Of a stretch of DNA of 64,000 bases, positions 11,485-57,280 are shown piece after piece; position 1 is the first letter of the stretch, and every line of letters starts with the position of its first letter. Below the pieces are notes generated by a model that had not been told where the DNA came from, ran no database searches, and saw only the letters and a list, made by a program, of their open reading frames with translations. Origin of the DNA: Chiloscyllium plagiosum (lineage: Eukaryota); contig NC_057752.1 of NCBI RefSeq assembly GCF_004010195.1, forward strand, positions 209,241 through 273,240, in the 5' to 3' direction. Made by a program: the position numbers and the translations under genes.

Positions 11485-13249
11485 GTGAGACTGAGATGAG
11501 GAGAAATTTCTAGCTAGTGGGGAGCCTCTGGAATTCACTGCCACAGAATGCAATTGAGGACAAAACATTGAATGATTTCAAGAAGGAATTAGATATAGTT
11601 CTTAGAACAAAAGGGATCAAAGAGTATGAAGAGAAAGCAGGAACAGTGTACAAAGTTGTATAATCATATTGAATAGAAGAGCATGCTCAAGTGGCCTAAT
11701 CCAGCACCTATTTTCTTTTTCTATGAAGACATTTGCTGTTTGGTGTTAGGATCCTTCATCAGACATGTCTGTATATCTCTCATTGCCCTTCTGATCAAGA
11801 GTCCACACCTCAAGTGTTAACTGCTATGTTCTTGCCATGGAGTTCCCTGACCAACTGAATCTTTCCTGCATCTCCTTGGGTTTTTTTCCTTTTCATCCTT
11901 TAAACTATTTGCAAACATATGGTCAGCATAATGTGAAATTTGTTTACTTCATAATAAATAAACCCCTGCCACATTTGTTCATGGTTTGAATCCCTCAAAG
12001 TAAATATCTGTTCACATTAGTTACCAGTTTGGTAGAAATATTTGTTCAACTTTGCTTTCTGCTTGGTGTTTCAACAATGTTTAAAACTTTTAAGCATTGG
12101 GCAAGATGCTCCAAATTTCTTTCACTTCCCATTTTGTGCTGTGATTGTGTGCTAATATTTTGTCGTCTGTGTATGATAAATTAAAAGTACCAATTTTATT
12201 TAATTATCCCTTTCTCAATAGATATCTTGCATTGCAGTGATCAGTGACAGCTTTAACTTTTATTCTATTGTCTTCCTTGACAATAGTGACTACGCTTTTA
12301 AAAGTACTTTGTTACCAAAGTGTGTGTGTGGTGAACCTGGGATAGATCCCACAAGATTGGGTTCCGCTGTGGTAGCTCCCATGATCGAGACTGACACCAT
12401 TTATTGCTGAGGGTTGTGTGTAACAGCAGTACTGTTTGCATGTGTCAGTATCTTTTTAGTGGGGGACAAGGTATAGTACAGGTTAGCAATTGATGAGTAC
12501 AATGGATAGTTTGTTCTGTACTCCAATCACTGTTCTTCTTGAATCAGCTGTTAACGTTTTAGCCAGTACTCCCTTCAATTTTGAAGTCAGTCCCACCATA
12601 GTAGAGTCTAGCTTCAGTTATGCATTTTGTGCATGTTTTATTTAATCATCTGAAAACAAGGATGTAAAAATGGGCTGCATTGCAACATTAGTGGTGGGGG
12701 TACAATGAAGGATCTATTGTCACAATCAACTGTTGTTTTTCAGACTTTGAAAAATTCCTCCCAAGTAGTCGAATACTTGGATGTCTACACGATGTAATAC
12801 AGATAAATGATAAACACAGTGGCTATTCTTCACAAGCAGCAGGATGATTGTTCAATAACTGCAGGTATCAAATGTCCTGATCACGACATATTGTCACTCG
12901 TGTGCATATGCACTTCAGCAATGGTTATTAAATACTAACTTAAATCTTAGATTGATAGTTTTTTTTACCTTCCCCTTTCCACTGGAATTGCTTTCGTTTA
13001 AGATGCTCTTTAAAACCTACCTTTTTGTCCTAACGTTATCATCTCTGGTGCCAAGTTTTGTTTGATACCGCTGTTGTAGATGGCTTGGGATGTCTTACTA
13101 CGTTAAAGGCGATATACAAACGCAAATTGTCGTTATCAAGACTCTAAACCTGAAGACTGTTTTTGGGTCGGTGATGTCAAATGACTCTAGTTTTACTCAT
13201 TCTTTCGCAAAATCTAACTTTTAATCCCAGATCAAGGGAAGGCTTTGTT

Positions 13250-13520
13250 TTGGCGAGAATTTTGCATCTCCGTACAGAGAATCGATGAAGTGTAGTTTCA
13301 ACAGCTGAAGTGGGCTAACTGACAAAGAGCGGCTTTGAGCAGCCTCGCGATCCTGCTATTCGCTGAGCGCGTGCACCTGAAAACACAGGACCCTCTCCCG
13401 CCTAAGAATGCTGCGCATGTGCTTTTTCTTCGGTTAGTCGACGTTGTTCAGTGCGGGAGGACGCGTGAAAAATTGCTGAGGGCGATTCTCATACACATGG
13501 AGAGAAATATACGGTTCAAC
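13250..13520. promoter_or_regulatory. CpG-enriched promoter-like segment
   Basis: About 19 CpGs in about 270 bp of unique sequence against a CpG-depleted background. NRF1-like TGCGCATGTGC (13412-13422), TCCCGCC GC/E2F-like box and CTCGCGA. Confidence 0.55.
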
Positions 13521-39041: not shown

Positions 39042-39189
39042 GTTCAACACAGAACTAGTTTATAGCCAAGTCTTGTGGAGGAATATCTTCTGTCTGCTCT
39101 TCTGCTGCTTTCCCATTCAAAATGTAAGCCAGTTTCCAGAAGATTCCAAACTTGCAGTCCCACCAAAGGAAAGTAGAGTTGTCTCCAAG
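39042..39189 (+). pseudogene. CTDSP2: CTDSP2-like pseudogene, exon 2 equivalent
   Basis: Acceptor tatatgcag, donor aag/gcaagt (GC). Reads ...KSCG(frameshift)RNIFCLLFCCFPIQNVSQ...KESRVVSK versus human KPRGRNIFKALFCCFRAQHVGQ...KEEANTIAK. 148 nt versus 149 expected from the human protein, plus an early in-frame TAG. Confidence 0.8.
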
Positions 39190-39279
39190 GCAAGTGCACC
39201 TTGCTCCTTTTTATGGTCGGTCTCCATCATTCTTGCTCTTCCTGTCCTCCACCAGATTCCTCCCCTGCCCCCTCCTTAG

Positions 39280-39445
39280 GGTCAGCTATGGCTCAGTCGG
39301 TTGCTCTCTTGTCTGAGTCATAGGTTCTGGTTTTGAATCCTACTCCAGGACTCAAGCACAAAAATCAAGGCTGATATCGTGATATACTGAGGGAGTGCTG
39401 CACTGTTGGTAATGTAGCTTCTGAGATGTTAAACCAAGGTGCCGA
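39280..39445 (+). mobile_element. DeuSINE-like (SacSINE1-like) 5' fragment; related 3' remnants at 20630-20750 and 55170-55335
   Basis: tRNA-like head followed by tactgagggagtgctgcactgt, a recalled DeuSINE motif. Confidence 0.55.
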
Positions 39446-39959
39446 CTCTGGCTTTGTGAACACTCGTCACTCAGTTAAGTGGCAAGTTATCCTCCCAGGG
39501 GAGGAAAAGATGGTTGAGCCTTATCTTCTACTGTCCCAATAGAGATTCACTTACTCTGTACAGATTGGGACTTGAGCCTGGAACTTTCTAGGTTTATAGA
39601 AAGTTGCAGCATGAAGAGAGTCCATTCATCTCAGTAAGACTGCCCCAGCTCTTTGCTCAAGCCATCCAAACCTAATGCTACAGTTCTGCTCTCTCCACAC
39701 AACCCTATACTAATGAATTTTTGTTCACACTGTCTCTCCATTCTGATATCTTTCTTGGCTGTAAATAGCTATCTAGCTTTTCATTCGAGATTCAATGGTT
39801 TCAGCATCAACCAGTTTTAAAAAAAATACTTGTCCATAGGTTGTGGGCTGGCTAGGCCAACATTTATTGCCTATCCTGAATGGCCCTTAAAGTTGGTGAT
39901 TAGCTGCCGCCTTGAACTGTTAAAAGTCCGTGAAGGATAGATGCACTGTCTGTGACAAG

Positions 39960-41200
39960 GCAATTATACTCCAAAAATCCTCTGTTTGAAACATTTAAGT
40001 AGAGAAAGATTGCAGAATTTGGCTGTACAGAGAGATTTGGGTGTTCTTTTACATGAATCTCAAAGTTAGTTTGTGGGTGCAGCAAATGATTAGGAAGGCA
40101 AATGTAATATTGGCATGTTTTGTGGGGCAACAAGACTATAAAAGCACCAATGTTAAAGATGATGTGAAACTTGAAAGGGTTCAGAAAAGATTTACAAGGA
40201 AGTTGCCAGGGTTGGAGGATTTGAACTATAGGGAGAGGCTGAACAGGCTGGGGCTGTTTTCCCTGGAGCGTCGGAGGCTGAGGGGTGACCTTATAGTGGT
40301 TTACAAATTTATGAGTAGCATGGATAGAGTAAATAGGCAAAGTCTTTTCCCTGGGGTCGGGGTGTCCAGAACTAGAGGGCATAGGTTTCGGGTGAGAGGG
40401 GAAAGATATAAAAGAGACTTAGGGGAAACTTTTTCATGCAGAGGGTGGTACGCATATGGAATGAGCTGCCAGAGGAAGTGGTGGAGGCTGGTATAATTGC
40501 AACATTTAAGAAGCATTTGGATGGGTATATGAATAGGAAGGGTTTGGAGGGATATGGGCCGGGTGCTGGCGGGTGGGACTAGATTGGGTTAGGATATCTG
40601 GTCGGCATGGACGAGTTGGACCGAAGGGTCTGTTTCCATGCTGTACATCTCTATGACTCTATAGTTGTACAATATATTGGTAAGGCTACATCTAAAATGC
40701 TTCGGTTTCCTCCCACAGTCCAAAGATGTGCAGGTCAGGTGAATTGGCCATGCTAAACTGCCAATAGTGTTAGGTGCATTAGTCAGAGGGAAATGGGTCT
40801 GGGTGGGTTACTCTTTGGAGGGTCAGTGTGGACTGGTTGGGCCGAAGGGCCTGTTTCCACACTGTAGGGAATCTAATCTAATCTAAAATAGTGTATGCAG
40901 TTTTGGGGTCTCAACTTCTATTCACTGCTTTTAAACAAAAACAGGTTTATTCAACTTCATCCTGGAATGATGGGCTTATTTTATGAATAAATGTTGGTTT
41001 TTGGAATTTAGAAAAATGAAATGCATTTATCGAAATAAGGTCCTGAGGGAACTGAATTGGGTAGATGCCAGGAAAATGATTCCTCTTGTGGAGGAGACTA
41101 GAAATAGGGGCAATAATTTTAAAATAGGTGGCCTCCTTTTTATGATAGAGATGTAGAGATTTTTTTCTGCAGGTTGTTAGTGAGTGGAAAGCAACAGTCA
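39960..41200 (+). mobile_element. Old CR1 containing a young CR1 3' end (40150-40660) and an HE1 fragment (40700-40885)
   Basis: ORF 40041-40496 LERVQKRFTRKLPGL...; gactcta tail; (TCTAA)n SINE tail. Confidence 0.85.
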
Positions 41201-41514
41201 TTTTAATTTTTTAATTCATTCATAGGTTTTGGGCATCACTGGCTCAGCCAGCATTTATTTCCCATCCCTCGATGCCTTTGAGAAGGTGGTGGTTAGCTGC
41301 TGCCTTGAACTGCTGGAGTCCATTTGCTATAGTCACACATGCTGTCAAGAAGGCAGTTCCAGAATTTTGACCAAATGACAATGAAGAAATGGTGATATAT
41401 TTCCAAGTCAGAATGGTGTGTGACTTGAATAGAAACTTGCAGGTGGTGATAGTGTTCTCAAGTAACTGCTGCCCTTGTCCTTCTAGATGGAAATGATGGT
41501 GGGTTTGGAAGTAT

Positions 41515-42214
41515 TGGGGGGAAAATCACCAGCCTCTGAGTCAGAGTCGGGGTTCAACGACAGAGTTTATTGTACAAGGAAATACCAGAGCTCCGGGGAA
41601 AGAAAGACACCAACAGCACAGTGGTCAGCTGCGATTCTTCTCACAACCTGGAGCACATGTCAAGATACTTTTATAGATTTTGTGATATAATAGGTCAGTG
41701 ATGATGTTATTGTCTCTGTTAACATTGTTTGTTGTAAACATTGCAGAATCGTTGATAGTTTTGATGCAGTCATTGTCAGTTCCAGCGCAGCCTGTGTTAA
41801 TTTCAGTGCAGTTGTTGTCACTTTCAATGCAGACATTGTCAGTTTCAATGTCTGTGCAGAAGTCCATTGCTGTAGTAATGGGTGTTGATCGCTCTTCCTG
41901 AGAAGGATGAATACTGCAGCCCTGGCTATTAGCATTTTGTATTGAGTCCATATCAAAGTGTTAGCATTTCTGTCAAAGGATCCAGACACTTCAGCGAGCA
42001 GTATACGCTACTCATGTGTATTCTCTCCCCCACCTGCTTTAAATTAATCAGCTAGGTTGTGAGTGCATTGTGCTGGCATTCTGGTGGTCCCAGGCAGTAT
42101 CTGTGTTTGCTTTGCTGTCTCTCTCCATCTTGTGTGTCAAGTGGCCAACTTATGGTTCAGTGGAATCTTGTGTGTCCATGTGCCTAGTATCACCCTGCCC
42201 CATGCTATCTGAAC
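41515..42214 (-). mobile_element. Solo-LTR-like insert with an internal 21-nt degenerate tandem repeat
   Basis: Interrupts the LINE, which resumes at ~42215. gtat/gtac flanks; minus-strand AATAAA near 41566. Confidence 0.5.
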
Positions 42215-43444
42215 GTACTGTCTGAGGAACTTTGGTGAATTTCTAAAGTGCATCTTGTACACATTGCTGCTACTGAGTATCGATGGTGAAGTGACTGACT
42301 GCAGATGTGGTGCCAATCAAACAGGCTCCTTTATCTTGGGTGATGTCAAACTTCTGGAGTGATGTGGAAGCTGTACCCATCCACGCAAGAGGGGAACATT
42401 CCATCACATTCCTGACTTGTGCTTCGAAGATGGTGGACATGCTTTGGGGAGTCAGGTGGTGAATTACTCACTGCAAGATTCCTTGCTTCCAACTGGCTCT
42501 TTAGCCACAGTATTTATATCGCAATGCAGTTCAGTTTCTAGTCAATGGGAAGTTCCCAGGATACTGATAGTGGGGGATTCAGTGATGGTAATGCCATTGA
42601 ATGTCAAGGGGCAGTGGTTAGATAGTCTGTCTCTTATTGGAGATGGTCATTGCCTGGAATTTGGTGTGAATGTTTCTTGCCACTTGTCAGCTCAAGCCTG
42701 GTTACTGTCTGAGTCCTGCTTCATTTGGACATGGATTGCATCAGTATCTGAGGAGTTATGAATAGTGCTGAACGTTGTGCAATCATCAGCGAACATCCCG
42801 ACTTCTGGCCTTGTGATGTAGGAAAGATCATTGATGAAGCAGCTAAAGATCGTTTGGCCTAGGACACTACCCTGAGGAACTCCTGCAGACATATCTTGGA
42901 GATGAGATGACTGACTTTCAATAACCACAATCGTCTTCAGATGAGGCAGTTATGAATCCAACCAGTGGAGACCTCCTCTCCAAATACCCATTGATTCCAA
43001 TTTTGCTTAGGCTCCTGGATGCCACATTCAGGGAAGATATGTTAGGCCATGTGGTTGCAGAATGTGTTAGACTACAGTTCTGCTGCTGATGGTTCACAGT
43101 GCTTCATAGATGCCCAGTCTTGAATTGCTAGATCTGTTCAAAATCTGTCCCATCTAGCATCTCAACACAATGAAGGGTATTCTAAATGTGAAGATGGAAC
43201 TTCATCTCTTTCAGGACTTGTGCAGTGGTCATTCTTATTGATTTATTATCCTGAACAGATGCATCTGTTGCAAATAGGATCAAGTATGATTTTCCCTTTT
43301 TGGTTTCCTCACCACCTGCCACAGTCCGAGTCTATCAGCTGTGTCCTTCAGGACTTGACTACCTTAGTAGTGGTGTTGCCAAGCCACTTCTGGTGATGGA
43401 CATTGGACATTGAAGTCCCTCACCCAGAAAATATTCTGCACCCT

Positions 43445-44304
43445 TGTAATGTTAAAAGATTAAATTGTACTATCTCTCTGGACATTAGTGTAAAACTGCA
43501 CTGTCTTTGGGTGGGGACGACATTCATGCAGGAATGCGAATGACTCCCACTCCAATTAGACAAGTCATCTGCTACTACCCCCCCTACTATTAAACTATCA
43601 TTCAATCTCTTCCATTCAGAAATGCTTTCGAGCCATCCCCTGAAGCTAACTATGTCATACCTACATTGTCTTGGGGAATCACTGAGTCAGGAAATTGTCA
43701 GCATAACAATTCCCCAGGATTAGGCATTTACATTTGCATTATCTCTGAGGATGATCTCATCCTACCATTGTACCTGGGGTAACATGTGACTGAGGGAGTG
43801 GCTGGGAGGGTTGTCTTGAGTGGCCAGAGTATCTGTGAGCGTGACCAACTGATCTGGATAAAGGGGATGTGTTTTCTTTGTTCAGGGCTTCACTTTGACT
43901 TGACTTCGCATGCATGCGAAGAGGGTCAACGGGATCATCTAGTTTGTACAAGCTTTAATACATTTTAACTGTTTGCTGAAGTTGGTGTGTGTGAATTGCA
44001 TCTTGTGTGTAAAACCTCGGGAAAAGAACCTAACACCCTTGCCACCCTTGGTGCTTCCTCCAAATGGCCTTCAACATGGAGTACTGATTCATCAGCCAAA
44101 GGAGGCTTCCTTGTCTGTATTGGCCTGTTGCTATTAGACTTTGTGGGGTCTGGAGTCATTGTTGAGGACTCCTAGGGTAAATTCCTCCCATTTGTATAGC
44201 TCTGTGCCATCATCGTTGTTGGGTCTGTATTTCTGATGGGACAGGACATACCTACAGCTGGTGTTGTCTGGAACATAATCATAATCACAAAACTGTACCC
44301 TACA
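43445..44304. mobile_element. Solo-LTR-like insert (TGTA...TACA)
   Basis: About 860 bp between two LINE segments with TGTA/TACA termini; no TSD seen. Confidence 0.45.
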
Positions 44305-45711
44305 GACAATGTCAGGCTATTGCATGACTAGTCTGAGACAGCTCTCCCAATTTTGGCACCAGCCCCTAGTTAATGAGGACTTTGCAGGGTCAACAGAGCT
44401 GTTTACCATTGTTGGTCGATGCCAGGTGATCAGTCTGGTTTCAATCCTTTTTTCTTTTCTAGTGGTTGATGCAACTGGTGTTCCAGAAGGCAGTTTGTGT
44501 ATGGAGTCATGTGGAAGCCAGACTGGGGAAGGATGGTAGTTTCCTTCACAAAAAGACATAAGGGTACTGGGTGGGTTTTTATGATAATCAACCATGGTTT
44601 CATCACTGATCATTAAACGTCCAGTTCTAGATTTTTCTAAAAGAAAATTTAAATTCCACCAGCTGGTGTGTTGGGATTCAAACTCAGGTCCCCAGAACAT
44701 TACCTGTGGAATGGATTCTCTGAATTAGACATTGTGCAACAATACCATGAGGTCATTAGCTCCACGTTATTCATGGCTAAACTAGATGGACTTCTGATGA
44801 ATCAGGGAGTCGAGTATATGTGTGTGCAAAACAGGAAACTTGAGTTGAGACCACTGCTATATCAACTATGTTCTAATTAAATAGCAGAGCAAGTTTGAGG
44901 GATCAAATTTTCCTTTTTTTTCCTAACCTACTCTTAAATAACTATTTTAAATTGATCGTTCACCATTGGCTCCCTAGCTACTGTTCTATTCACCTCGGAG
45001 CTTCCAAAAACCTCTTTTGATTTTTGAGAAGTACTTTTTGGATGCTTGCTACTCCTTTCAGCTCTATATGTGAAATACTGGTCCATCCAGACTGTTCCAT
45101 ATGTGACATAAGACGCAACAAAGTAAGTTTTTAAAAACCCAAGCTAATTAGCTGAGGGATAATCTGTAAAAATATTCTCTTCAACCCATGCTTAAGATAA
45201 TTGAAGAGATCTTCTGGACTCATTTCATTCTATCCTTATTGTTGAGGTGCAGATTTATGCTCACCAGGTGCTCATTTATTTTCTGGAGTGAGCTTCAACT
45301 ATATGTATCAAAGACAAGCTTGATGCTGTGTATCTTTAACAACTGCATGCTATCCACTGTCACAGGGAGTGATCAGCTGAGACATACATGACTCAAGGGT
45401 GCTGTTCAATCCCATCTGAATCCTTGGAGCACTTGAGTGGAATCTTTTATGGTTCATGTTCCTGCTTAAACAGAATCTCTGGCTTGGGGGCTTTTGTTTT
45501 CTGCTGAGGAAAGGACTCATTGGGAAAGATGTTTCTCACATCACATCATGTGTTAGAGGCGTTATTATATTGGGAGGCCATGAAGTTTAAAAAATGAATT
45601 CAAACTTCCAGTCTCTCTCTCTCTCTCTGTGGTTGCTTCTCACCCAATATATTAACAATGTTGCTTGTTGTCTACAACAGGTTTGTTTTAGACTTCTTAT
45701 TTCCTCCTCAG

Positions 45712-45813
45712 ATTTCAGGCATTTGACTTCTGCCCACGATTGAGCTACAGGTTGCAGGCAAGTTTTGTCTTGTCATCGATTTAGATGAGTCATTGAATCA
45801 CAGTTCCTTTGAG
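45712..45813 (+). pseudogene. CTDSP2: CTDSP2-like pseudogene, exon 4 equivalent (catalytic DxDxT exon)
   Basis: 102 nt, AG/GT intact. ISGI*LLPTIELQVAGKFCLVIDLDESLNHSSFE versus [34 protein letters not shown]. TGA at 45724-45726; DLDET changed to DLDES. Confidence 0.92.
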
Positions 45814-46261
45814 GTGAGTGTAATAGCTCTGTCTTTGAAAACCTCTCAGACAGTCTGGTTGATTTTTGGATCTCCAGGGTGTCTTAAACTTCCAATTCTC
45901 TACAGCCTCCTTTGACTTAGTTAAAAGCAGTCAACCGAATGTACCCTGCCTATCTATCCGGTCACTGGAAGTGTGCAGAGAGAGAAAAAAGTGCTTGTGT
46001 CTGTGAAGCTCCATCATGTATACTGGATGGAGACTGTTCACAAGGGGAATTGTATTTCAATGAGTAAGGTGACTGTGCTTTCTAAGAAGAAAATTGGGAT
46101 AAATCCCACCAATTCCCACTGAATATGGGGAATATAATTTTTCTTTTCCTTCTTTGCTGGCTCGTTCTCTCCCCGTCACATGTGCTCTGTTTTTCATTTT
46201 CACTTCAGTTGGTTTAATTAGTTAATTTGGGTTTTCAAACAAAAAGCTTGTGGCACAGCAA

Positions 46262-47060
46262 TAATCATACAGTATGGAAACAGACGATTTGGTCCAACCA
46301 GTCCCTGCTGACCATAATCCCAAATTAAACGAGTCCCACCTACCTGCACTTAGCCCATATCACTCCAAACCTTTCCCATTCATGTACATATCCAAATGTC
46401 TTTTAAACCTTGAAATTGCGCCCACATCCACTACTTCCTCTGGCATAGGGTGTAGGTTTGCTCGCTGAGCTGTAGGTTTGATTTTCCATGACGTTTCATT
46501 ACCTGGCTAGGTAACATCATCAGTGGCGACCTCCAAGTGAAGCGAAGCTGTTGTCTCCTACTCCTCGCTTCACTTGGAGGTCGCCACTGTTGATGTTACC
46601 TAGCCAGGTAATGAAACGTCTGGATATCAAACCTACAGCTCCGCGAGCAAACCTACACCCTAAACCTCAACCTGAGCTACAAACCTTCACAAACCTTGCG
46701 ACTTCCTCTGGCAGTTCATTACACACATGAAACACTTTTTTAAAAATTGCTCATCTTTTTTTTAAATCTTTCTCCTCTCACCTAAAACAAAATGCCCCCC
46801 TAGTCTTGAAATACCCCACCCTAGGGAAAAGACACCTGCCATTCATCTTATCTATACCCCTCATGATTGTATAAACCTTTATAAAGTCAACCCTCGGCCT
46901 TCTACGCTCCACTAAAAGAAAGTGTCAGCCTATTCAGTCTCTCCTTCTAACTCAAACCCTCCATTCCTGGCAACATCCTGTTAAATCTCTTCTGAACCCT
47001 CTCCACCTTGATATCCTCCCTATAACAGGGAGACCAGAACTGGATACAGTCCACCAGTTT
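46262..47060 (-). mobile_element. CR1 3' fragment interrupted by a fold-back mini Penelope-like insert
   Basis: CR1 tail and ORF2 end on both sides of 46446-46700. Confidence 0.85.
46446..46700. mobile_element. Palindromic mini Penelope-like element (about 98-bp inverted arms)
   Basis: Arms 46446-46544 and 46565-46662. Perfect 13-bp TSD ACTTCCTCTGGCA (46433-46445, 46701-46713). Confidence 0.9.
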
Positions 47061-47949
47061 AGAATCTGTGATAGACAGTGTCCCTATCTTGGGGCCAGAG
47101 GGCCTTGGTTCTAATCCCACCTGCTCCAGGGATTGTCATAACATACCTGAACAGGTTTTTTTTAAATGATGCATAGCACAGAGGAAATTTCTATATAGTC
47201 TGCTGCTGTACACTACTGATTTGTCCACTGCCTGGACACGCTGTGGCGTTCTGTTTTGCTGCAGGGCAGCAAGGACCACCAGTGGAGTGCTCTCTGTTGC
47301 GAACTCTTATATTTCTAAATACCTCTGATATTTGTTTGCAGGAAACTATATCACCTGTTTAGTTACTTGAAGAATCTTTTGGCTATACTTCAGTTGCATT
47401 CTTTTCATCATCAGGTACCCAGTGCAGAAAAGGGCATGATCAAGGTGGAAGACTCCCTCGTGGGCCTAGCTAAAGTAGCCAAAATACGGTCCAGGCAGCA
47501 TGCTGTGGTGGGAGTCCAAATTCTTGACCAAATGCCCCTCTTCTACAGCTACATTTGCACCTGGGTATCTTTGGAGAGGGAGTACACGGCATCAAGCAGG
47601 ACCTTCAAAGCTTTTAGAATTGGTTCTGCAGGGGTGGGATGCATTATCTACCCCCTCCAAAACTATTTGGATTTAATTCAAATGCCTCCTTTCTCCACAC
47701 CCACCTGGTTTTGAAGTTTTAGTTTTTATTTCACTGCTGAGTGGGCAACGTATGATATTTGTTAATTGGGTAATTAGTTAATTTGTTGGGTTTTATTGCA
47801 TTTTTTAAAAATGGATTCTTTCCCAGTGGGAAGGGAAAGGTCCAGAAAGAAGAGGTATAAACTGGTGTTTGTGCTGGAGTATAGATGCGCAATGAAACCC
47901 TTGGAAATCTCTGAAAGTCTTTTGCTGTGTAATTTAACATATGGAATGC

Positions 47950-49262
47950 GATTTTTGTGAAGATTTGTGGTTCAGACTGTAAGTTTGCTCGCTAAGCTGG
48001 AAGATTTGTTCTAAGACATTTCGTCACCGAACCAGGTAACATCATCAGTGAGCCTCTGTTGAAGCACTGGTGTTCTGTCCCGCTTTCTATTAGTGTGTCT
48101 TGGTCCTTTGTGGTGGGAGATATCACTTGCGGTTCTTTTTCTGAGAGTTTGGTAAATGAGGTCCAAATCGATGTATTTATTGATGGAGTTCCGGTTTGAA
48201 TACCAGGCCTCTAGGAATTCCCATGTGTATCTTTGTTTAGCCTCTCCCAGAATGGATGTATTGTCTCAGTCGAACTGGTGTCCCTCATTGTCTATAATGT
48301 ATGGATACTAGTGTTAGTTGGTCATGTCATTTGGTGGCTAGTTGGTGCTTGTGTATCCTGATGGCTAGTTTCCTGCCAGTCTGTGCGGTGTAATGTTTGT
48401 TGCAGTCCTTGAAGGGTATTTTCTATATGACGTTCATTCTGCTGGTTGTTGGTACAGGTTCATCAAGAGTTGTTTCACTGTGTTGGTAGGTTTGTGGGCT
48501 ACCATGATGCCAAGGGGCTGGAGTAGTCTGGTTGTCTGAGATGTCTTTAATGTATGGTAGTACAGCTAGAGTCTCTGGGCGTGTTGTTTGGTGAACTTCA
48601 TACCAATAAGGATATTGTTTGTGTTAATGGGCTTCTTCTAATTTGTTGCATTTCATGATGACAAAGATGACATAGTGAACCTAAAGCTTGTGCTGGATTG
48701 TGAGGAGGGCTGATCGTTCCAACCTCTGCATAACTGCCTCTGCCAAAAATCCTGATATTGGTGATCCCATGGGTGTCCCATTGATTTGTTTGTAGGTCTT
48801 GTCATTGAAGGTGAAGTGGGTTGTGAGGCACAAGTTAACCAAGTTTGAGGATGCTGTCCTTTCTGATGGCTGTCAGGTGTTTGTGACCTTCGTTTGTCTA
48901 GTAGTGTGGCCAGTGTTTCTTTGACCAAGATGATGCTTATTCATGTGAATAGGGCCATAGCGTCAAAGAAAACCATGACCTCATTTATCCTCCACCTTGG
49001 TGTCTTTCATGATGTTCAGGAATTCCAGGGTGGAGTGGATGGAGTTGGGTGAGTCATCCTCTAGGTATTTCAGTTTGCGTTGAAGTTCCTTTGCACGTCT
49101 CTATATAGGTGTGCCGGAAAGTGAGACTATGGGTCTGAGGCGGGTGGAGGGGGGGTGCCTGGATTGTGTACCTTTGGTAATCCGTAGAAACGGGGAGTCT
49201 TAGCAATGATGACAAAACATCTGAGAACAGATCTTCCAGCTTAGCAAGCAAACTTACAACCT
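47950..49262 (-). mobile_element. Poseidon-type Penelope-like element with an inverted terminal piece
   Basis: Homologous to 15720-17510. Flanks ttaacatatgg/ttaacatgtgg. Confidence 0.88.
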
Positions 49263-49489
49263 TAACATGTGGCTATTGGTCATGTTTTTTTATAAAAACT
49301 GGTTCCTAATGATGCCTCAACTGCATATAGTTGGCTTAAATCTGTTTGCTGGGAGAGTGAACATTGAATAGGAGGGAAAATTCCAATCGTATCCAGGGTT
49401 CCGATTTTATTAAACTAATGCACTTCACAGGAATTCCAAAACCTTTTGTTGAGACATTCTGTAATTTGGATGGCACAAGGATTGTTTGT

Positions 49490-50805
49490 AATTTTGGGAA
49501 GATTTGTAGCTCAGGTTGTGGATCAGGTCAAAGAAACAGTGGCCTCACTACTAGACGAACCAAGATCACAAACACCTGACAGCACTAACTCCATCAGCAA
49601 GGACAGCATCCTAAACCCATAGACCTGTGCCTCACAACCCACATCACCTTCAATGACAAGACCTGCAAACAAATCACTGGGATGCCGATGGGACTCTTAG
49701 CAGAAGCAGTTATGCAGAGATTAGAATGAACGGCCCTTCCCACGATCCAGCCCAGGCTTTGGGTCCGCTGGGTCAGCTATGTGGATGACACCTTTGTCAT
49801 CGCGATACACAACAAATTAGAAAAAGCCCACAAACACATAAACAACATCCTTTCTGGGATAAAGTTCACCAAAGAGGAAGAGACCAACAACAGACTCCCC
49901 TTCCTAAGCGTCACAGCAGAATGAAAATCCAATGGAGAGCTGCAGACCAACGTTTGCAGGAAAGCCAACACAGACCAGATACTCAACTACAGGAGCAATT
50001 ATCCCAACAACCACAAACTAAGCTGCATCAGGACATTATTTTAAAAAGCCACAACACACTGCAGCACCTAGGAACTACAAGAAGCTGAGGAAAAAACTTA
50101 TACAATATATTCAGGATCAACGGGTACCCAATAAGCACAGTCTGCCGATTCCTACACAACAGACCTAAATAAGAAGAGACAACATGCCCAGAGACTCTAG
50201 CCACCCTGCCATACATTAAAGCCATCTTGGACATGATGACTAGACTACTCCAGCCCCTGGGCATCAGGGTAGCCCACAAAACCTACCACCACACTGAAAC
50301 AGCACCTGATGAATTTAAAGGACGCTGTACCAACAACCAGCATAACGAATGTCATATACAAAATGCCCTGCAAGGACTACAACAAACACTACATTGGACA
50401 AACAGGCAGGAAATTAGCCACCAGGATACACGAGCACCAACTAGCCACCAAAAGGCATGACCAACTATCACCAGTAACCATACACACACAAGGCGGGACA
50501 CCAGTTCGACTTGGACAAAACATCACTCCTGGAACAGGCTAAACAAAGATACGCATGGGAATTCCTAGAGGCCTGGCATTCAAACTGGAAATCCAATAAC
50601 AAACATATTGATTTAGACCCTACTTACGTTAGAAAAAGAACCGGAAGTGATATCACCCACCACAACAGACCAAGACAAATAAATAGCAAGCGGGACAGAA
50701 CACCAGTGCTTCATCGGATGTTCACTGATGATGTTTCCAAGCATGGTGATGAAATGTCTGAAAACAAACAAATCTATCAGCTCAGTGAGCAAACTTACCA
50801 CCTGA
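49490..50805 (+). mobile_element. Poseidon-type Penelope-like element
   Basis: YVDD and NVIYKMPCKDYNKHYIGQTGRKLATRIHEH (GIY-YIG). Confidence 0.9.
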
Positions 50806-50876
50806 CAGGCAATGTGTTATTGGAAGTTAACAGTGCAAATGTATATTTAACCTAATTCAGACTCTCGCTGTTTCAG

Positions 50877-50933
50877 CCAGTCGGCAATGCTGACTTCATA
50901 GTTCCTGTTGAAATTGAAGGAGAGACCCAGCAG
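50877..50933 (+). pseudogene. CTDSP2: CTDSP2-like pseudogene, exon 5 equivalent
   Basis: 57 nt. PVGNADFIVPVEIEGETQQ versus PINNADFIVPIEIEGTTHQ. Acceptor intact; donor reads TTGAGA instead of GT. Confidence 0.92.
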
Positions 50934-51299
50934 TTGAGAAACTGTTCAATTTATTTTCAAACTAATCAGTGTCATGATTCTCTGCCCTTCTATGACTTCT
51001 GTGATAATATGGACAGTGACTAGAGTTGTGAGCCTGTGTGCCAGGGATGAATTCTTGAGCATGGATTATCTGCATGAACCGAGTGTGGGGATCATTCCCT
51101 GTGCTAAATCAGGTAAACCTAAGGTTCACCTGGTTTACATGAGCTTGGTCTGCTGGCAAATTAAATTTGTCAAGTAACCTTTGTTGTGGACCAGACCAGA
51201 CCGACACCCCCCCCCCCGGAGTTGAAAGTGAATCTCTTGAACTCTGCCGTAACCAAGGAGGTGGAAATGGAGTGTTTCACTGGGTGGGCTAGTTGAACA

Positions 51300-51507
51300 A
51301 ACAAGTGAGGACTGCAGATGCTGGAGATCAGAGTCAAAAATTGTGGTGCTGGAAAAGCACAGCCGGTCAGGCAACATCCGAGGAGCAGAAGAGTTGACGT
51401 TTCGAGCATCAGCTGACGAAGAGCTTATGCTCGAAACTTCAACTCTCCTGCTCCTCTGATGCTGCCTGACTGGCTGTGCTTTTCCAGCACCACAAGTTTT
51501 GACTCTA
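51300..51507. mobile_element. Fold-back mini Penelope-like terminal element
   Basis: Inverted arms around cagctgacgaagagcttatgctcgaaa; approximate TSD ggctagttg/ggctaattg. Confidence 0.8.
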
Positions 51508-52245
51508 GGCTAATTGGAGGTCATATAATGAAAGCTGCGAGAATACATCCGACCTGAGAGAAAACGGAATTGGTAGAGTAGTGGTCAGTTCAGGTTGTCT
51601 TCAGTGCTGTGGAGTTGGTCCTTTTCTCACTATATTCAATCAAATATTCTTTTAAAAACATAGCCCTTTGGTTGTGGCTTGCAGAGGTACCTCTTAAGGA
51701 CTGAAATAAGCCTTAGTTTAATGCAACAGTCCTGGCAATGTTCAAAGCAGATCAATTTCAGGAAGGATATCTTTAAAAATGATCAGGGCTCTTTTATATA
51801 TGCAGTGACACACCATTTCAGTCCCTGGACATCTATCTCTGTCTTTTTGTTAATACTGTGAGCAATACATCTTTCAGATGAAATGTATGTTCTCTCATCA
51901 CAATGTTAATGTGTTTTTATACCTATACAAATGGGATCGTGTTGACTAATTCCTGTTTCCAAGCAAATGGTTACAAATACTTTGGCTGTTATATTACAGA
52001 ATCATAGACATTTACAGCACCAAAGGAGGCTACTTAGGTTATCATGTCTGTGCTAGCTAATGAAGAGCTATTCAGCCTAATGCTATATTCCAACTCTTGA
52101 ACTGCAGCTTACAGCAGCTTGAGTATATATCCAAGTATTGTTTACTCCTACAGTGGAGATTCATTTTGTATTCACTAATTTTTAGCTTATTTGAAATTTT
52201 GTTTTTCAGCTATTGGAGAGCTTGATTTTAACCAAATGAGTGTCT

Positions 52246-52334
52246 GTCTAGCTAAGACCTGCTTCAAGTAATCCAGGATAGGCTGTGTTAATTTAAAATG
52301 GCCTATTCTTGATGACTTGTTTCAGGAAATAGAC
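52246..52334 (+). ncRNA. MIR26A2: miR-26a precursor hairpin (mir-26a-2 type), intronic in the CTDSP2-like locus
   Basis: 52263-52284 TTCAAGTAATCCAGGATAGGCT is identical to mature miR-26a-5p. 52302-52323 CCTATTCTTGATGACTTGTTTC differs at one base from recalled miR-26a-2-3p. Basal pairing cctg/cagg and gtcta/tagac; UGUG at the loop. Lies between the exon 5 and exon 6 equivalents, the known miR-26 intron of CTDSP genes. Confidence 0.96.
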
Positions 52335-52508
52335 TGTTTCACATCGGCGAGGATTGCTGATGGGATCTTCAGTTATCTGTTGTTCATTATGTGGGAGAGG
52401 AAGTGAATGGAGGTGCTGGCTTCATGATACCCTAATTTGAATCATTGAAAATCAATTAGCCATTAGTAAAGGGAGATGAAAGTTGATACAGAATAGAAAG
52501 TGGCCCAG

Positions 52509-53454
52509 CGGGAGCCTGTGCCCCACAACCTGAGCCGCCTCCGGAATTTTAATTTTGTTCCCTTCCAGGGGGTAAAAAGGAAGGCCTTATATCGACTGCT
52601 GCTGCACACCGTCCACCTCTTCTCCATCATCCACCGTCCGGACACGCCTTGGCATGCCCATTTGCCACCGAGAGATGGGGATCCCCAGTGGAGGGCTCTC
52701 CCTTTCTCTCGGGGATCTGGGGTGGCGGGTGCTGCACACAGCAGTCCCCTGCAACCGCAGATTGCGGTGGTTCACGGACTCCCAGCCCAACTGCTTGTTC
52801 TGTGGCGCTGTGGAGTCCGTGGACCAGGTGTATATTGGGTGTGGGCGTTTGCACTCCCTTTTTGATTTTCTGAAAAACCTCCTCCTCTGCTTTTGGTTGC
52901 ACTTCAGTCCCACGCTCCTGGTCTTCGGGCACCCGGTACGGAGGAGGGAGGGCAGGTCTGAAGACCTCCTCGTGGGTCTGCTCCTGGGCCTGGCCAAACT
53001 GGCCATCAACAGGTCGAGGCAGCGGGCCGTGGAGGGGGTCGTTAGGGCCGACTGCCTGCCCCTCTTCCGCGGTTACGTTAGAGCCCGGGTGTCCTTGGAG
53101 AAAGAGCACGCAGTGTTCACCAACACCCTGGAGTTGTTCAGGGAGAGGTGGGCGCCGCAGGGAATGGAGTGTATTATTTCCCCCTCCAACTCTATCTTGA
53201 TTTAGTCCCTACCCTCCCCTTCACTGTTTGATCACACAGCATTGCCCTTTGATGTGAAGGGCAGTGTTTGTCACTGGCCACCCGGGTGTTTTCCTATCTT
53301 CCTGGTGGTGGAAATCGAATAAAGATTCGTACAACTTGTGTCTCTCACTGTGTCTCACACCTGCACACACACACCATAGGTGCTGGGGAAAAAAATAATA
53401 AGCACTACCGCAGTTAGGCGGTAGTGTGGGGGAACAACAAAAAAAAGAAAAAAA
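52509..53454 (+). mobile_element. Tx1/L1-clade non-LTR retrotransposon, 5' truncated (ORF2 C-terminal CCHC region + 3' UTR)
   Basis: DLGWRVLHTAVPCNRRL...CLFCGAVESVDQVYIGC...FRERWAP*. 3' hairpin cactaccgc/gcggtagtg, poly-A, and 17-bp TSD AATAGAAAGTGGCCCAG (52492-52508, 53455-53471). Confidence 0.9.
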
Positions 53455-53656
53455 AATAGAAAGTGGCCCAGAGCTGTCTGAATGGGGGAAACAAAGTTTA
53501 AAAAAAAATCACATGACACCAGGTTATAGTCCAACAGGTTTATTTGAAAGTACTAGCTACTTTGGCAGGGGGAGGAGATGGAGCAGAGAGAGGAGAGAAA
53601 GGAATGTTAGTGTGCTGGGTCTGTTACTGCTTCTAACTAACGTGCACTTCTTTCAG

Positions 53657-53743
53657 GTTTGTGTTCAAGAGCCCGTTTGTTGAATTCTTCAAAGAACGGG
53701 AGAACTGTTTGAATGTGTACTATTTACAGCCAGTTTAGCTCAG
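53657..53743 (+). pseudogene. CTDSP2: CTDSP2-like pseudogene, exon 6 equivalent
   Basis: 87 nt (93 expected), AG/GT intact. [28 protein letters not shown] versus [31 protein letters not shown]. Small deletions give TGA at 53681-53683. Confidence 0.92.
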
Positions 53744-54409
53744 GTACTCTTCTCTTTTAGTGTCACTGAGCTGATAAATTTTATATTTTGGAAAAAAGTG
53801 GAAGAAGAATCTTCCATTGGAAAATGTAATTGTTCTTCTCATTACTTAATTTCAAGCACCATCAAATGGCTAGTTGCTAGGCCCCTGCCAGAAGTTCTCT
53901 GGAACCAGTCACTCTTCTAAACATGTGTGCTCACAGTGATAGAAAACATAATCTGTTCCACTTCACTCTGAGCATTTTCATTACCTTCCTGAAACCACTC
54001 AGACTGCTTGCCTTACCCACAAACTCCTGACATTAGCTGGCTGTGATTCCTGCTTGATTTTTCATGGCAATGTAACAGGAAATCAAAGGGTAATGTTTCT
54101 ATTGGCATGTGTAATGCCTGCCAATAAGTGGATAAGGAAAAGGAAGGTTGACAGTGGTCTGGTTATAAGTGAGGAAGGGTAAAGGACAATTGAAGTTGAT
54201 ACATGTAAGTGGCAGTGGACCATTTTGTCTCAATTTCTGATGTTAATGCAATCAATTTTGGTCAGGATTGTTGAGAGGAAGCCAGGCCCAGATCAGAAAT
54301 GCAGTGTGAAATCAATTCTTCAGCGTGCCATGAAGGTGTTTCACATTCTGCCTGAGGGTGACTCCCATGACTGTGCATCTATCATGATATTTTGCTAATC
54401 TATCATGAC

Positions 54410-54930
54410 TGACAGCCCTAAAGGAGCCTTCCACATCCATCAAAGGTTTACTTGCACATCTACTAATATCATTTATTGTATCCGTTGCTCCCGATGCGGT
54501 CTCCTCTACATTGGGGAGACTGGACGCCTCCTAGCAGAGCGCTTTAGGGAACATCTCCAGGACACCCGCACCAATCAACCATACCGCACCGTGGCCCAAC
54601 ATTTCAACTCCCCCTCCCACTCTGCCGAGGACATGGAGGTCCTGGGCCTCCTTCACCGCCACTCCCTCACCACCAGACCTCCACCCTCTCCTCCCTGACC
54701 TATCATCTTCATTCCCTCCCCCACTCACCTATTGTACTCTATGCTACTTTCTCCCCACTCCCACCCTCCTCTAGCTTATCTCTCCAAGCTCCAGCCTCAC
54801 TGCCTTTATTCCTAATGAAGGGCTTTTGCCCAAAACGTCGATTTCAAAGCTCCTTGGATGCTGCCTGCTGTGCTCTTCCAGCACCACTAATCCAGAATCT
54901 GGTTTCTAGCATCTGCAGTCATTGTTTTTA
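54410..54930 (+). mobile_element. Penelope-like 3' fragment (GIY-YIG + terminus)
   Basis: NIIYCIRCSRCGLLYIGETGRLLAERFREH. Confidence 0.9.
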
Positions 54931-55521
54931 CCAGCTTGTATGAGTTGAACATCAAATTATAAATGGGGGAGTCTGAAGTCAACGCTCTACTTGGACCATA
55001 ATTCTTTGTTCCTTTTGATAAATCTGGGGTCATGGATTTAGGCTGAGTGTTAGGAGGCTCAGAGGACAATTTTCTACTGGTGGGTTCTAAGACTCACGCG
55101 AGCTGTAGGGAGACCTACAATATTGTTCAGGACTGACTTCCAGAATTTTGATTCAGCCATCTGATATATTAAAGAAGAGCAGGGGAATTATCCTCAGTGG
55201 CCTGACCAGTATTTATCTCAACCAAGTAGATGGTCTTGTCATTATGGGGCTGGCCACACTTCCAATGTACTTCATTTGCTATAAAAAAGTGTTTTGGGAT
55301 GTCATTGACAGAGATTGTATAGATAAAACTCCTTTCTATGCCTTGGTTGCAATGAAGAATGACCGCTTGCATGAACTAAGTGTACAATGCCAAAACCCGT
55401 GAAACTGCATCCTTGTCAGAAACAACTGATTTATCATAAGCTTGCTCGAGTAACAGTTTAACAGAGGAGCAAAGAAAGACACTATAAATGTACCCCTATT
55501 CAATGTGTTGGAGATCATTAT

Positions 55522-55527
55522 TTTATT
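55522..55527 (-). terminator. Probable TSFM polyadenylation signal (AATAAA on minus strand)
   Basis: TTTATT on + strand about 70 nt downstream of the TSFM stop codon. Confidence 0.6.
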
Positions 55528-55598
55528 CTGATATCAATAAAGAGATTTTCACAATGAAAAATGGTACACATTCCTTTGAACGCATCAATGCATTCCAA

Positions 55599-56017
55599 CT
55601 ATACTTTCTCTGCCAATTCAGTTACCTCACCACACTCGTACCGTACAAAGTCCAGCACTGACACCCCCCTTGTAAGCAGGAACTGCCCTACAGTTGTGTC
55701 AGGGTCCAGCAGAAAAGGCTGTGCCAACATCTTGGTCTCTGTGTCATCACCAGGTGGGTCCTCCATTGAGCCCATAGATAGTGGCATCATTCCCACAATG
55801 TGCTGACCTAACCTGCGGCCCAGCTCTGAGAAGTTTACATTTGAATTATGCTCCATGGGCTTACAAATCACTAGTGCACCATATTTTCCAAATGTCATCT
55901 TTGAGAGGTTTGGGTTGTCCTCTGGCAACATTCCATGAACATACGTGCCAATATAGCAATCAGTTGGCACAGCCACCCAGGAAGCTCTTCTTATAGTCAT
56001 GTTCTCACCAAGGTTAC
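55599..56017 (-). CDS. TSFM: TSFM last coding exon (exon 6) with TAG stop
   Basis: (G)NLGENMTIRRASWV...GKYGALVIC...GRRLGQHIVGM...ETKMLAQPFLLDP...VLDFVRYECGE...KV*. Phase is compatible with exon 5. The five exons total 912 nt in one open frame. Confidence 0.97.
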
Positions 56018-57280
56018 CTTTTAAAATATTTTTAAAAAAGGGCGAATCAAAATGTGTTTGTAAAAAGCAGGGTTCTTATTCTTGAATTAAGACATCACAT
56101 GAAAATCAAATTCTTCAGTGAGGGTGCACTTATTAAAATACACTAAATTACAAACCAGCTTTGGGATGTAGGTGGTGATATATTACAGATCATTTAGGGT
56201 GTCAGATTTACTGTAGGACATCCATTTTTGCTTGCGTGTCATCATCTGGAGCAATGCATTGTGATGGTCGAGATTCCAATTTTCTTTCTGTCGTATAGCT
56301 GACCAAGAACCTCTCCCACTCTTACCAACTGCCGCATCATAGGGTGGAAGGAATTACAGGTTGGTATGCAACCTGTTTGGCTGTGCTATGAAAACATCTT
56401 CCTTGACAACCAAGTCTCAAATCTACAGCTTCAGGTAGGAACATCACCCACTCTGCCACAAGCCCTCCTAATGAGTTAGTTAACAACTTGAGTGTGTAGT
56501 AATTGGAGAATTAGTGGGAGATCAAGGTGAAAGTCAGTTCTGAGGAATAGATACTTCAGCATTTGTTACACTCCAGCATCAGTAGCAAGCACTGCCACGC
56601 AAAACAAGTCATGCTTAATTGCCCATACGAGTTAGGTGCATTGGTCAGGGGGTATGGGTCTGGGTGGGTTACTCTGCGGAGGGTCAGTGTGGACTTGTTG
56701 GGCCGAAGGGCCTGTTTCCACACTAGGAAATCAAATCAAATCTAGACATTTCTTCCTTTGCCTCTAATCATGCTCTCTTTTACCGTCTCTCCATTTTATA
56801 TGTGTTATGATCATTGCAGCTCTGAGCTTTCTTCTCTTCCTTCTCATAGGCTCCAAATCCAATCCTATAGACTTTTCTTTTGGCACCCTCACTGTGCTGA
56901 CATAAACATGATTGCAGTCTCCTACTCCAACTCATTTCCTCGCAGTAGCTCAAAGCTGTGCATGGTTTTGTCTCCTTTGTGTTTTCTAAATTCCAACAGT
57001 GACGACACTTAAAGTACTTAATTGATTGTAATGCACTTAGGATGTCCCAAAGCTTGTGAAAGGAATAATATTACCGGAAAGCTTCCTTTTCTTTCTCCCT
57101 CAGTTTTTTTTCCTCTGGCAGTTATCTGGACTAGACTACAGAGATGGTCATATTTATATCAAAAATGTTACTGAGGAAACTTTAATTTTAAGAAAGAATA
57201 GATAGCTATGCCATTGCACCTCCCTGCCAAAAAAAAGGGCAAAGCAACTCAGCAGGCTATGATTATACTGCTGATCTTAC

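What the first reader, a model, noticed from the sequence alone, without database searches (positions are those of the whole stretch)
39042..53743. Dead CTDSP2 phosphatase gene apparently retained as a host for an intact miR-26a
Seen: four exons match CTDSP2 in order, phase and near-exact length. Each is disabled: frameshift plus TAG (exon 2), TGA before the DLDES motif (exon 4), GT to TT donor loss (exon 5), deletions plus TGA (exon 6). In contrast, the intronic miR-26a-5p is invariant and its hairpin intact. All four acceptors and two GT donors survive. Known: miR-26 loci sit in introns of CTDSP1, CTDSP2 and CTDSPL and are co-transcribed with their hosts. Inference: protein-coding function was lost long ago while selection kept the transcription unit as a non-coding miRNA host, i.e. 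a protein gene turned pri-miRNA lncRNA.
Basis: partly seen in the sequence, partly recalled or inferred. Interest (0 to 1): 0.88.

Follow-up and report, generated by a model that had tools for sequence, protein, structure and literature searches.

The report
MicroRNA outliving its dead host gene
In a shark genome the phosphatase gene CTDSP2 is an old, broken and truncated fossil, but the microRNA miR-26 in its intron is still intact: a new example of a known pattern in which an intronic microRNA outlasts its host, though its expression from this locus is not yet shown.

Summary
Observation confirmed and extended. Four CTDSP2 exons (2, 4, 5, 6) lie in order around an Rfam-grade miR-26 hairpin, each broken as described; three of them and the hairpin read the same in a public DNA-like run. 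The gene is more dead than reported. Exons 7-8 are missing, no advillin gene was found, and TSFM ends 1.86 kb after exon 6. No intact CTDSP2 was found in the assembly, while CTDSPL and CTDSP1, each with its own miR-26, are present. The exons have decayed by about 10.5% at conserved sites. At that level, survival of the splice dinucleotides is expected by chance (P about 0.5), and hairpin conservation is only suggestive (P about 0.05-0.09). One read-laying showed no spliced joint and no reads over the hairpin in a shallow poly(A) sample. A clientless CpG-rich patch 25.5 kb upstream is a candidate surviving promoter. Best reading: a unitary pseudogene whose miR-26 is kept by selection and transcribed from the old promoter, with no need for host splicing. 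Precedents exist in teleosts (miR-499, mir338-2). Four look-ups found no earlier scan note on this.

The parts
13101..13500 (.). Candidate surviving promoter: unique CpG-rich patch with an NRF1-like motif at 13412. Direction and client are not shown; no recognisable coding exon 1
   Evidence: 24 CpG in 400 bp (o/e 1.13), against a median of 3 in 188 unique windows; only NRF1-like match in unique sequence from -80 kb to +56 kb, motif pattern recalled
39042..39189 (+). CTDSP2 exon 2 remnant: one-base frameshift, TAG at 39056-58, AG acceptor, GC donor
   Evidence: 37-43% identity over 37-38 aa for 50 of 52 hits, nearly all mammalian, many named CTDSP2; single copy in the assembly
45712..45813 (+). 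CTDSP2 exon 4 remnant: TGA at 45724-26, DLDET changed to DLDES, AG acceptor, GT donor
50877..50933 (+). CTDSP2 exon 5 remnant: open frame, donor GT changed to TT
   Evidence: best PDB match is human SCP2, 2q5e
52252..52332 (+). miR-26 precursor; 5p arm 52263-52284, 3p arm 52302-52323 with one stem-breaking G at 52314
   Evidence: Rfam 76.8 bits; fold z -3.01, 2 of 200 shuffles as stable; 5p identical in all three loci
52576..53330 (+). Sense-strand 3' end of a LINE-type retroelement, with AATAAA at 53318, between the hairpin and exon 6; a possible new 3' end for the transcript
   Evidence: 209-aa frame with a weak zf-RVT match below the Pfam cut-off, E 0.0056; multicopy by read depth; AATAAA
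53657..53743 (+). CTDSP2 exon 6 remnant: 6 nt deleted in up to three events, TGA at 53681-83, AG acceptor, GT donor
53744..55598 (.). 1,855 bp without N between exon 6 and the TSFM stop; exons 7-8 and AVIL are missing here (inferred deletion)
   Evidence: partly covered by X15 contigs
55599..56018 (-). TSFM last coding exon (intact, spliced, expressed neighbour; synteny marker)
   Evidence: spliced RNA-like contigs at depth 37.6 and 53.4

Best explanation
This is a unitary CTDSP2 pseudogene whose intronic miR-26 (the miR-26a-2 position) has outlived it. Shown: the gene is broken in every surviving exon, exons 7-8 are absent, TSFM now abuts it, and the hairpin still has an unchanged 5p arm. Inferred: one deletion removed exons 7-8 together with AVIL; since those exons encode the C-terminal part of the phosphatase domain, this alone would kill the enzyme, and CTDSPL and CTDSP1 cover the function. 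Inferred: the remaining exons then decayed neutrally. Inferred: RNA polymerase II still starts at the old promoter (candidate at 13.1-13.5 kb) and runs about 39 kb to the hairpin, Drosha crops it from the nascent RNA, and the rest is discarded. Selection acts on the promoter and the hairpin (miR-26 dose, or the old CTDSP2 expression domain), not on exons or splice sites.
For: Identity as CTDSP2: tree support 99/99; TSFM and METTL1 on the same contig; the other two miR-26 loci sit in CTDSPL and CTDSP1. No intact copy found. Decay of 13 of 124 non-degenerate sites and about 4 indels in 394 nt of exon, against 0 changes in the 22-nt 5p arm: P 0.087 for the 5p arm, P 0.047 for at most 1 change in both arms. 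A unique CpG-rich patch survives with no other evident client; CpG decays when methylated (established knowledge). Precedent: medaka miR-499 is expressed without MYH14, and its old 5' flank is conserved (PMC3716903).
Against: The hairpin statistics are weak (Fisher P 0.08-0.11; P 0.27 when hairpin sites shared by both paralogues are used). This hairpin folds least stably of the three (-31.7 against -43.5 and -40.5 kcal/mol) and has one broken stem pair. The 5p product is identical at all three loci, so it is redundant. Raw poly(A) single-cell run X19 (12.96 M reads, about 2% of the run) had zero depth in the exon 2, hairpin and post-exon-6 bins, while TSFM reached 14. No coding exon 1 was found, and two assembly gaps lie upstream. 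The direction of the CpG patch is unknown.
Confidence: 0.55

Rival explanations
1. One reading: the remnant is a spliced, polyadenylated lncRNA host whose exon structure is itself kept by selection, as in non-coding snoRNA or miRNA host genes.
For: Four AG acceptors, two GT donors and a consensus-like GC donor survive; exon lengths are near the originals.
Against: Splice-site survival matches neutral decay (P 0.49; Fisher 0.50). The exon 5 donor, which opens the miRNA intron, is lost. A sense LINE poly(A) signal sits before exon 6. The one RNA-like contig listed at exon 6 crosses its acceptor unspliced (X1 53535-53718, depth 4.3), and no exon-exon joint is among the 15 of 1014 shown.
Confidence: 0.15
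2. The whole locus is silent, and the hairpin is decaying neutrally in a very slowly evolving genome; it looks intact because only about 10% of sites have changed since the gene died.
For: An invariant 5p arm has P 0.087 (interval 0.015-0.275) by chance; one stem pair is broken; it is the weakest fold of the three; two other loci make the same 5p; no reads in X19. In teleosts the miRNA survived host loss in only 14.4% of cases (PMC8321539).
Against: Both arms, the loop length and the basal stem still score 76.8 bits, above the copy in intact CTDSP1 (67.2); the upstream CpG patch persists.
Confidence: 0.15
3. The miRNA is functional but driven by its own nearby promoter or a retroelement promoter, so the dead gene is only a bystander.
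For: Intronic miRNAs can have their own promoters, discussed for miR-499 (PMC3716903). The exon 4-5 intron just upstream is 68% repeat-like. Exon 1 was not found.
Against: No unique CpG-rich patch lies between exon 2 and the hairpin; the best candidate is upstream of exon 2, where a host promoter is expected.
Confidence: 0.12
4. Artefact or duplicate: the lesions are assembly errors, or an intact CTDSP2 exists elsewhere, for example unassembled or on a sex chromosome.
For: The assembly is fragmented (101,977 contigs; CTDSP1 exons 4-5 are on an unplaced contig). Elasmobranch X chromosomes are homologous to part of human chromosome 12 (PMC12952989). X15 may be the source sample.
Against: X15 contigs reproduce exons 2, 5, 6 and the hairpin; 13 of 66 conserved residues are changed; exon-7 matches at 83% or more occur only at CTDSPL and CTDSP1; exon 2 DNA is single copy.
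Confidence: 0.03

Closest known systems
Medaka, stickleback, cod and platyfish miR-499 without host MYH14 (PMC3716903; abstract and passages seen)
   Same: An intronic miRNA kept at the syntenic site after loss of its protein-coding host; the old upstream regulatory region is proposed as its driver.
   Different: There the host is erased and expression was shown in medaka. Here four fossil exons remain, expression is not shown, and the host is one of three ancient vertebrate paralogues rather than a teleost-duplication copy.
Teleost cases of miRNA kept and host lost: mir338-2, mir135a, mir103b (PMC8321539; section 10 read in full)
   Same: Decoupled fate of an intragenic miRNA and its host; 5.4% of cases in that survey.
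   Different: Those follow the teleost genome duplication; this one is in a cartilaginous fish and involves loss of the only CTDSP2, apparently with AVIL.
lncRNAs that are fossils of protein-coding genes (PMC5577775; abstract and one passage seen)
   Same: A lost coding gene whose transcription unit may persist as non-coding RNA.
   Different: That study is mammalian, requires expressed lncRNAs and credits mainly enhancers; its main text has no occurrence of miRNA, microRNA or host. Transcription here is unproven.
Canonical miR-26a-2 in CTDSP2, miR-26a-1 in CTDSPL, miR-26b in CTDSP1 (PMC5825903; passages seen)
   Same: Three loci, one per host; in this genome each hairpin lies just upstream of exon 6 on the host strand.
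   Different: In mouse all three hosts encode protein. Here the CTDSP2 host is dead, and all three 5p arms are identical, so there is no distinct miR-26b 5p.
MYH7b/miR-499 uncoupling by exon skipping in mammals (title seen in a reference list; content recalled; paper not held)
   Same: The host transcript serves the miRNA without making protein.
   Different: There it is regulated and the gene is intact; here the loss is fixed in the DNA.

Membership tests
mir-26 family (RF00244) | Precursor scores above the Rfam gathering threshold over the full model | tested here: met
   76.8 against 57 bits, model positions 1-81
mir-26 family (RF00244) | Conserved 5p arm and seed | tested here: met
   22 of 22 nt identical to both paralogues
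mir-26 family (RF00244) | Processed 5p and 3p reads from this locus | not testable with these tools
   No small-RNA run was listed
CTDSP2 orthologue | Groups with CTDSP2 proteins, not CTDSPL or CTDSP1 | tested here: met
   99/99 support; AU test rejects CTDSPL (p 0.037) but not CTDSP1 (p 0.222); long branch of 1.16
CTDSP2 orthologue | Synteny with TSFM and METTL1 (human order recalled) | tested here: met
   TSFM convergent at 1.86 kb; METTL1 at C43:362.5-363.4 kb
CTDSP2 orthologue | AVIL directly downstream (human order recalled) | tested here: not met
   No gelsolin or headpiece match on C43 (22 matches from 67 candidates; 8 from 99); no villin exon match in 383 kb
Functional SCP/CTDSP phosphatase | Open frame, DxDx(T/V) motif, complete domain (exons 4-8) | tested here: not met
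   Stops and frameshifts; DLDES; exons 7-8 absent; longest stop-free stretch of the joined exons is 56 aa
Unitary pseudogene | No intact orthologous copy in the genome | tested here: met
   the assembly is fragmented, so absence is not absolute
Non-coding miRNA host gene (MIRHG) derived from a coding gene | Transcribed on the miRNA strand | tested here: inconclusive
   Only unstranded, unspliced pieces at depth 3-4.4 in RNA-guessed contigs; zero in X19
Non-coding miRNA host gene (MIRHG) derived from a coding gene | Spliced exons or splice sites under constraint | tested here: inconclusive
   Survival no better than neutral (P 0.49); the joint table was swamped by repeats
Non-coding miRNA host gene (MIRHG) derived from a coding gene | Conserved as non-coding in related species | not testable with these tools
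   No related genomes are held; no chondrichthyan-named CTDSP2 protein surfaced in two word-limited searches, which is weak evidence

The most novel reading that the evidence does not exclude
CTDSP2 (with AVIL) was lost deep in shark or elasmobranch ancestry, and for over a hundred million years its promoter and fossil exons have run as a dedicated non-coding host for miR-26a-2. That would be a visible half-way stage between an intronic miRNA and a stand-alone miRNA gene, and a natural test of whether the miR-26/CTDSP coupling matters for the miRNA's expression pattern rather than for feedback on its own host.
Probability: 0.3. Interest if true: 0.62.

Novelty: new member of a known kind. Interest (0 to 1): 0.42.

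Why it matters
miR-26 and the CTDSP phosphatases are a standard example of host-miRNA coupling: co-expression in mouse (PMC5825903, passages) and repression of ctdsp2 by its intronic miR-26 in zebrafish (cited in PMC4159003; the primary commentary was not held). A lineage that dropped the protein but kept the hairpin would show that the third miR-26 copy is selected for dose or expression domain, independent of its host protein. It would also offer a rare snapshot, with the exons still readable, of how miRNA-only host genes arise. The general phenomenon is already in print for teleosts, so the value lies in the specific locus and the visible intermediate. I found no report of CTDSP2 loss in sharks in four full-text searches. 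Curated miRNA catalogues and the supplements of PMC8789304 and PMC8321539 were not read and may list this hairpin.

Tried and rejected
Splice-site survival as evidence of selection: rejected. The substitution counts are invalid (off-by-one register) and were redone, using paralogues only, gave 15 of 105, an overestimate.

Intact CTDSP2 on unplaced contig C100614: rejected, its exons 4-5 match the same protein (P0141) as the C7 exons 6 and 8, so they belong to CTDSP1. The C42 headpiece as AVIL: rejected, it is ABLIM/dematin-type; five other headpieces were not checked one by one.

CpG-rich block at C43:3-6.5 kb as promoter: rejected, it is a tandem repeat with tRNA-like genes, read by eye. The CpG-rich spot at -28 kb is repeat. 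Exons 1 and 3: no convincing remnant. STAT gene as client of the 13.3-kb patch: no STAT match on C43 (12 matches from 17 candidates). Other clients: 128 of 339 unique ORFs between -34.5 kb and exon 2 were scanned, giving one retroelement integrase hit only; one search scanned 96 of 519 longer upstream ORFs.

Chondrichthyan CTDSP2 proteins: 2 candidates and none scoring; 52 hits of 57 candidates, none named from a cartilaginous fish; weak evidence. No RNA holder on record was listed. The lay over 19.3 kb was swamped by repeats, so 15 of 1014 joints and 24 of about 156,000 pieces were shown. The genome search of the CpG patch gave no answer, so its copy number genome-wide is untested. The IL23A identity of the upstream gene was not confirmed by Pfam, PDB or the Atlas. 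Earlier scan notes: four look-ups, nothing relevant. PMC8789304 and PMC10208646: passages only, no mention of mir-26 or CTDSP2 respectively.
Full report
Setting. The window is G000:C43:209241-273240 in a 3.56-Gb assembly. Its CTDSPL exon 7 is 100% identical to shark-named proteins, so this is a shark-type genome.

The observation. Rfam finds one RNA in the window, mir-26 at 52252-52332 (76.8 bits), which folds better than 198 of 200 shuffles. The genome search scored 56 candidates and found three miR-26 loci: C5, C7 and this one. All three have the same 22-nt 5p arm. Four exon remnants surround the hairpin: exon 2 (39042-39189), exon 4 (45712-45813), exon 5 (50877-50933) and exon 6 (53657-53743). 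Five CTDSP2 proteins hit exons 4-6, and the two mammalian ones also exon 2, collinearly in 383 kb. Contigs of DNA-like run X15 reproduce exon 2 (no gaps, 2 other letters in 671), exon 5 with its donor, the hairpin and exon 6. Exon 4 was not among the pieces shown, and X15 may be the source sample.

Which gene. In a tree of 22 rows the remnant groups with CTDSP2 at 99/99. The AU test rejects CTDSPL (p 0.037) but not CTDSP1 (p 0.222), and the branch is long, so synteny carries weight. TSFM ends 1,855 bp after exon 6 on the opposite strand, METTL1 is about 100 kb further on and PAN2 lies upstream; that these are human 12q13-14 genes is recalled. The C5 hairpin sits in CTDSPL, with seven coding exons found open. 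The C7 hairpin sits in CTDSP1, whose exons 4-5 are on unplaced contig C100614. Homeobox clusters lie on C5, C7 and C33, none on C43 among the 150 scored.

Exons 7 and 8 are absent from the 383 kb and from the genome search, where exon-7 matches at 83% or more occur only on C5 and C7. There is no N between exon 6 and TSFM. AVIL, which lies between CTDSP2 and TSFM in human (recalled), was not found on C43. One deletion of exons 7-8 plus AVIL is the simplest account (inference); whether it came first cannot be told. A sense-strand LINE-type 3' end with AATAAA at 53318 lies between the hairpin and exon 6. Exons 1 and 3 were not recognised, and two gaps lie upstream, at -29 kb and at -2.3 kb to 0.

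Age and selection. At non-degenerate sites of residues conserved in at least 8 of 9 CTDSP2 proteins, 13 of 124 have changed (0.105; 95% interval 0.057-0.173). With the epaulette-shark rate of 7e-10 per generation (PMC10587355, abstract and passages) that is about 1.6e8 generations. This is only an order-of-magnitude sign of great age, since long-term and small-chromosome rates may be higher. At this decay, one or fewer changes in 16 splice bases has P 0.49, so the splice sites say nothing about selection. An unchanged 5p arm has P 0.087, and at most one change in both arms P 0.047 (interval 0.002-0.277); the latter assumes one change in the 3p arm, whose last bases I could not check against an orthologue. 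Fisher tests give 0.08-0.11 and 0.27 in the paralogue-only version. The hairpin has one broken stem pair and the weakest fold of the three, yet outscores the CTDSP1 copy in Rfam. Selection on the hairpin is likely, not proven.

Promoter. The densest CpG window in the 136 kb examined is unique sequence at 13101-13500: 24 CpG, against a median of 3 in the window's 188 unique 400-bp windows, with an NRF1-like motif (pattern recalled). PAN2 has its own CpG-richer patch near -75 kb and is separated from this one by another gene. No other coding client appeared in 128 of 339 ORFs scanned. It lies 25.5 kb upstream of exon 2, where the CTDSP2 promoter is expected, but its direction is unknown.

Expression. 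No run on record as RNA holds the stretch, which is no evidence either way. In the single lay, RNA-guessed contigs show spliced TSFM at depth 37.6 and 53.4. Over the remnant they show only short unspliced pieces at depth 3-4.4 (X1 53535-53718; X2 47308-47495 and 49279-49469); a TSFM intron piece has the same depth, so DNA or pre-mRNA could explain them. No exon-exon joint is among the 15 of 1014 shown, which were dominated by repeats. Raw poly(A) single-cell reads (12.96 M, one sample) gave zero in the exon 2, hairpin and post-exon-6 bins, against 14 for TSFM. Such libraries mainly see 3' ends, and a cropped pri-miRNA would be scarce, so this counts against an abundant spliced lncRNA in that sample but does not exclude a pri-miRNA.

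Mechanism. Most likely (0.55): the old promoter still fires, Drosha crops miR-26 from the nascent transcript, and selection holds only the promoter and the hairpin. That cropping does not need splicing is stated in PMC3716903. Rivals: a selected spliced host (0.15), a silent locus decaying slowly (0.15), an own promoter (0.12), artefact or hidden copy (0.03).

Comparison and novelty. It works like medaka miR-499 without MYH14 (PMC3716903) and the teleost host-lost cases that make up 5.4% of outcomes (PMC8321539, section 10), and it may belong with lncRNAs that are coding-gene fossils (PMC5577775). It meets the tests for the mir-26 family, for CTDSP2 orthology and for a unitary pseudogene; membership among non-coding miRNA host genes is unproven. 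Four full-text searches (listings only, plus passages of PMC4159003) found no report of this loss. Verdict: real, a new member of a known kind, interest 0.42.

Noticed in passing
G000:C43:168786 to about 173,320 (L051:9546-9698, L027:3001-3114, L027:3912-4079; + strand): A multi-exon gene with a signal-peptide-like start, head-to-head with PAN2 inside a CpG-rich region. By recalled resemblance and PAN2 synteny it is probably IL23A (p19); Pfam, PDB and Atlas gave no confirmation.
   Followed up: partly
G000:C43, between the CTDSP2 remnant and TSFM; whole genome: No advillin (AVIL) gene was found: villin-type genes sit beside CTDSP1 (C7) and CTDSPL (C5) only. A possible lineage loss together with CTDSP2 exons 7-8.
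   Followed up: partly
L001, L003 and window 52263-52284: All three miR-26 loci encode the identical 5p arm, so there is no distinct miR-26b 5p at the CTDSP1 locus in this genome.
   Followed up: partly
G000:C43:36,357-37,437 (L066) +: An inositol-phosphatase-family gene (PF00459; INPP1-like by recall) tail-to-tail with PAN2; may be a paralogue that human 12q13 lacks.
   Followed up: no
G000:C43:3,000-6,500 (L063): Tandem repeat of about 1.26 kb carrying tRNA-like genes, read by eye; CpG-rich.
   Followed up: no
G000:C16:47,946,037-47,946,408: Intronless, stop-containing EF-Ts match, probably a processed TSFM pseudogene.
   Followed up: no
G000:C7:105.58-105.70 Mb and C100614: The villin-type gene and CTDSP1 are on opposite strands here (tandem in human, recalled), and CTDSP1 exons 4-5 are on an unplaced contig; possible local mis-scaffolding or inversion.
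   Followed up: no
window 47342-47414: Exon-like stretch with a good acceptor and a GT donor inside the exon 4-5 intron; an RNA-guessed contig covers it unspliced at depth 4.4.
   Followed up: partly
G000:C15:35,720,087-35,722,064: Five gelsolin repeats in about 2 kb with long open frames and some stops, like an intronless gelsolin-family retrocopy.
   Followed up: no
window 46446-46662: A 220-bp palindrome (90%) formed by head-to-head ends of a repeat element.
   Followed up: no
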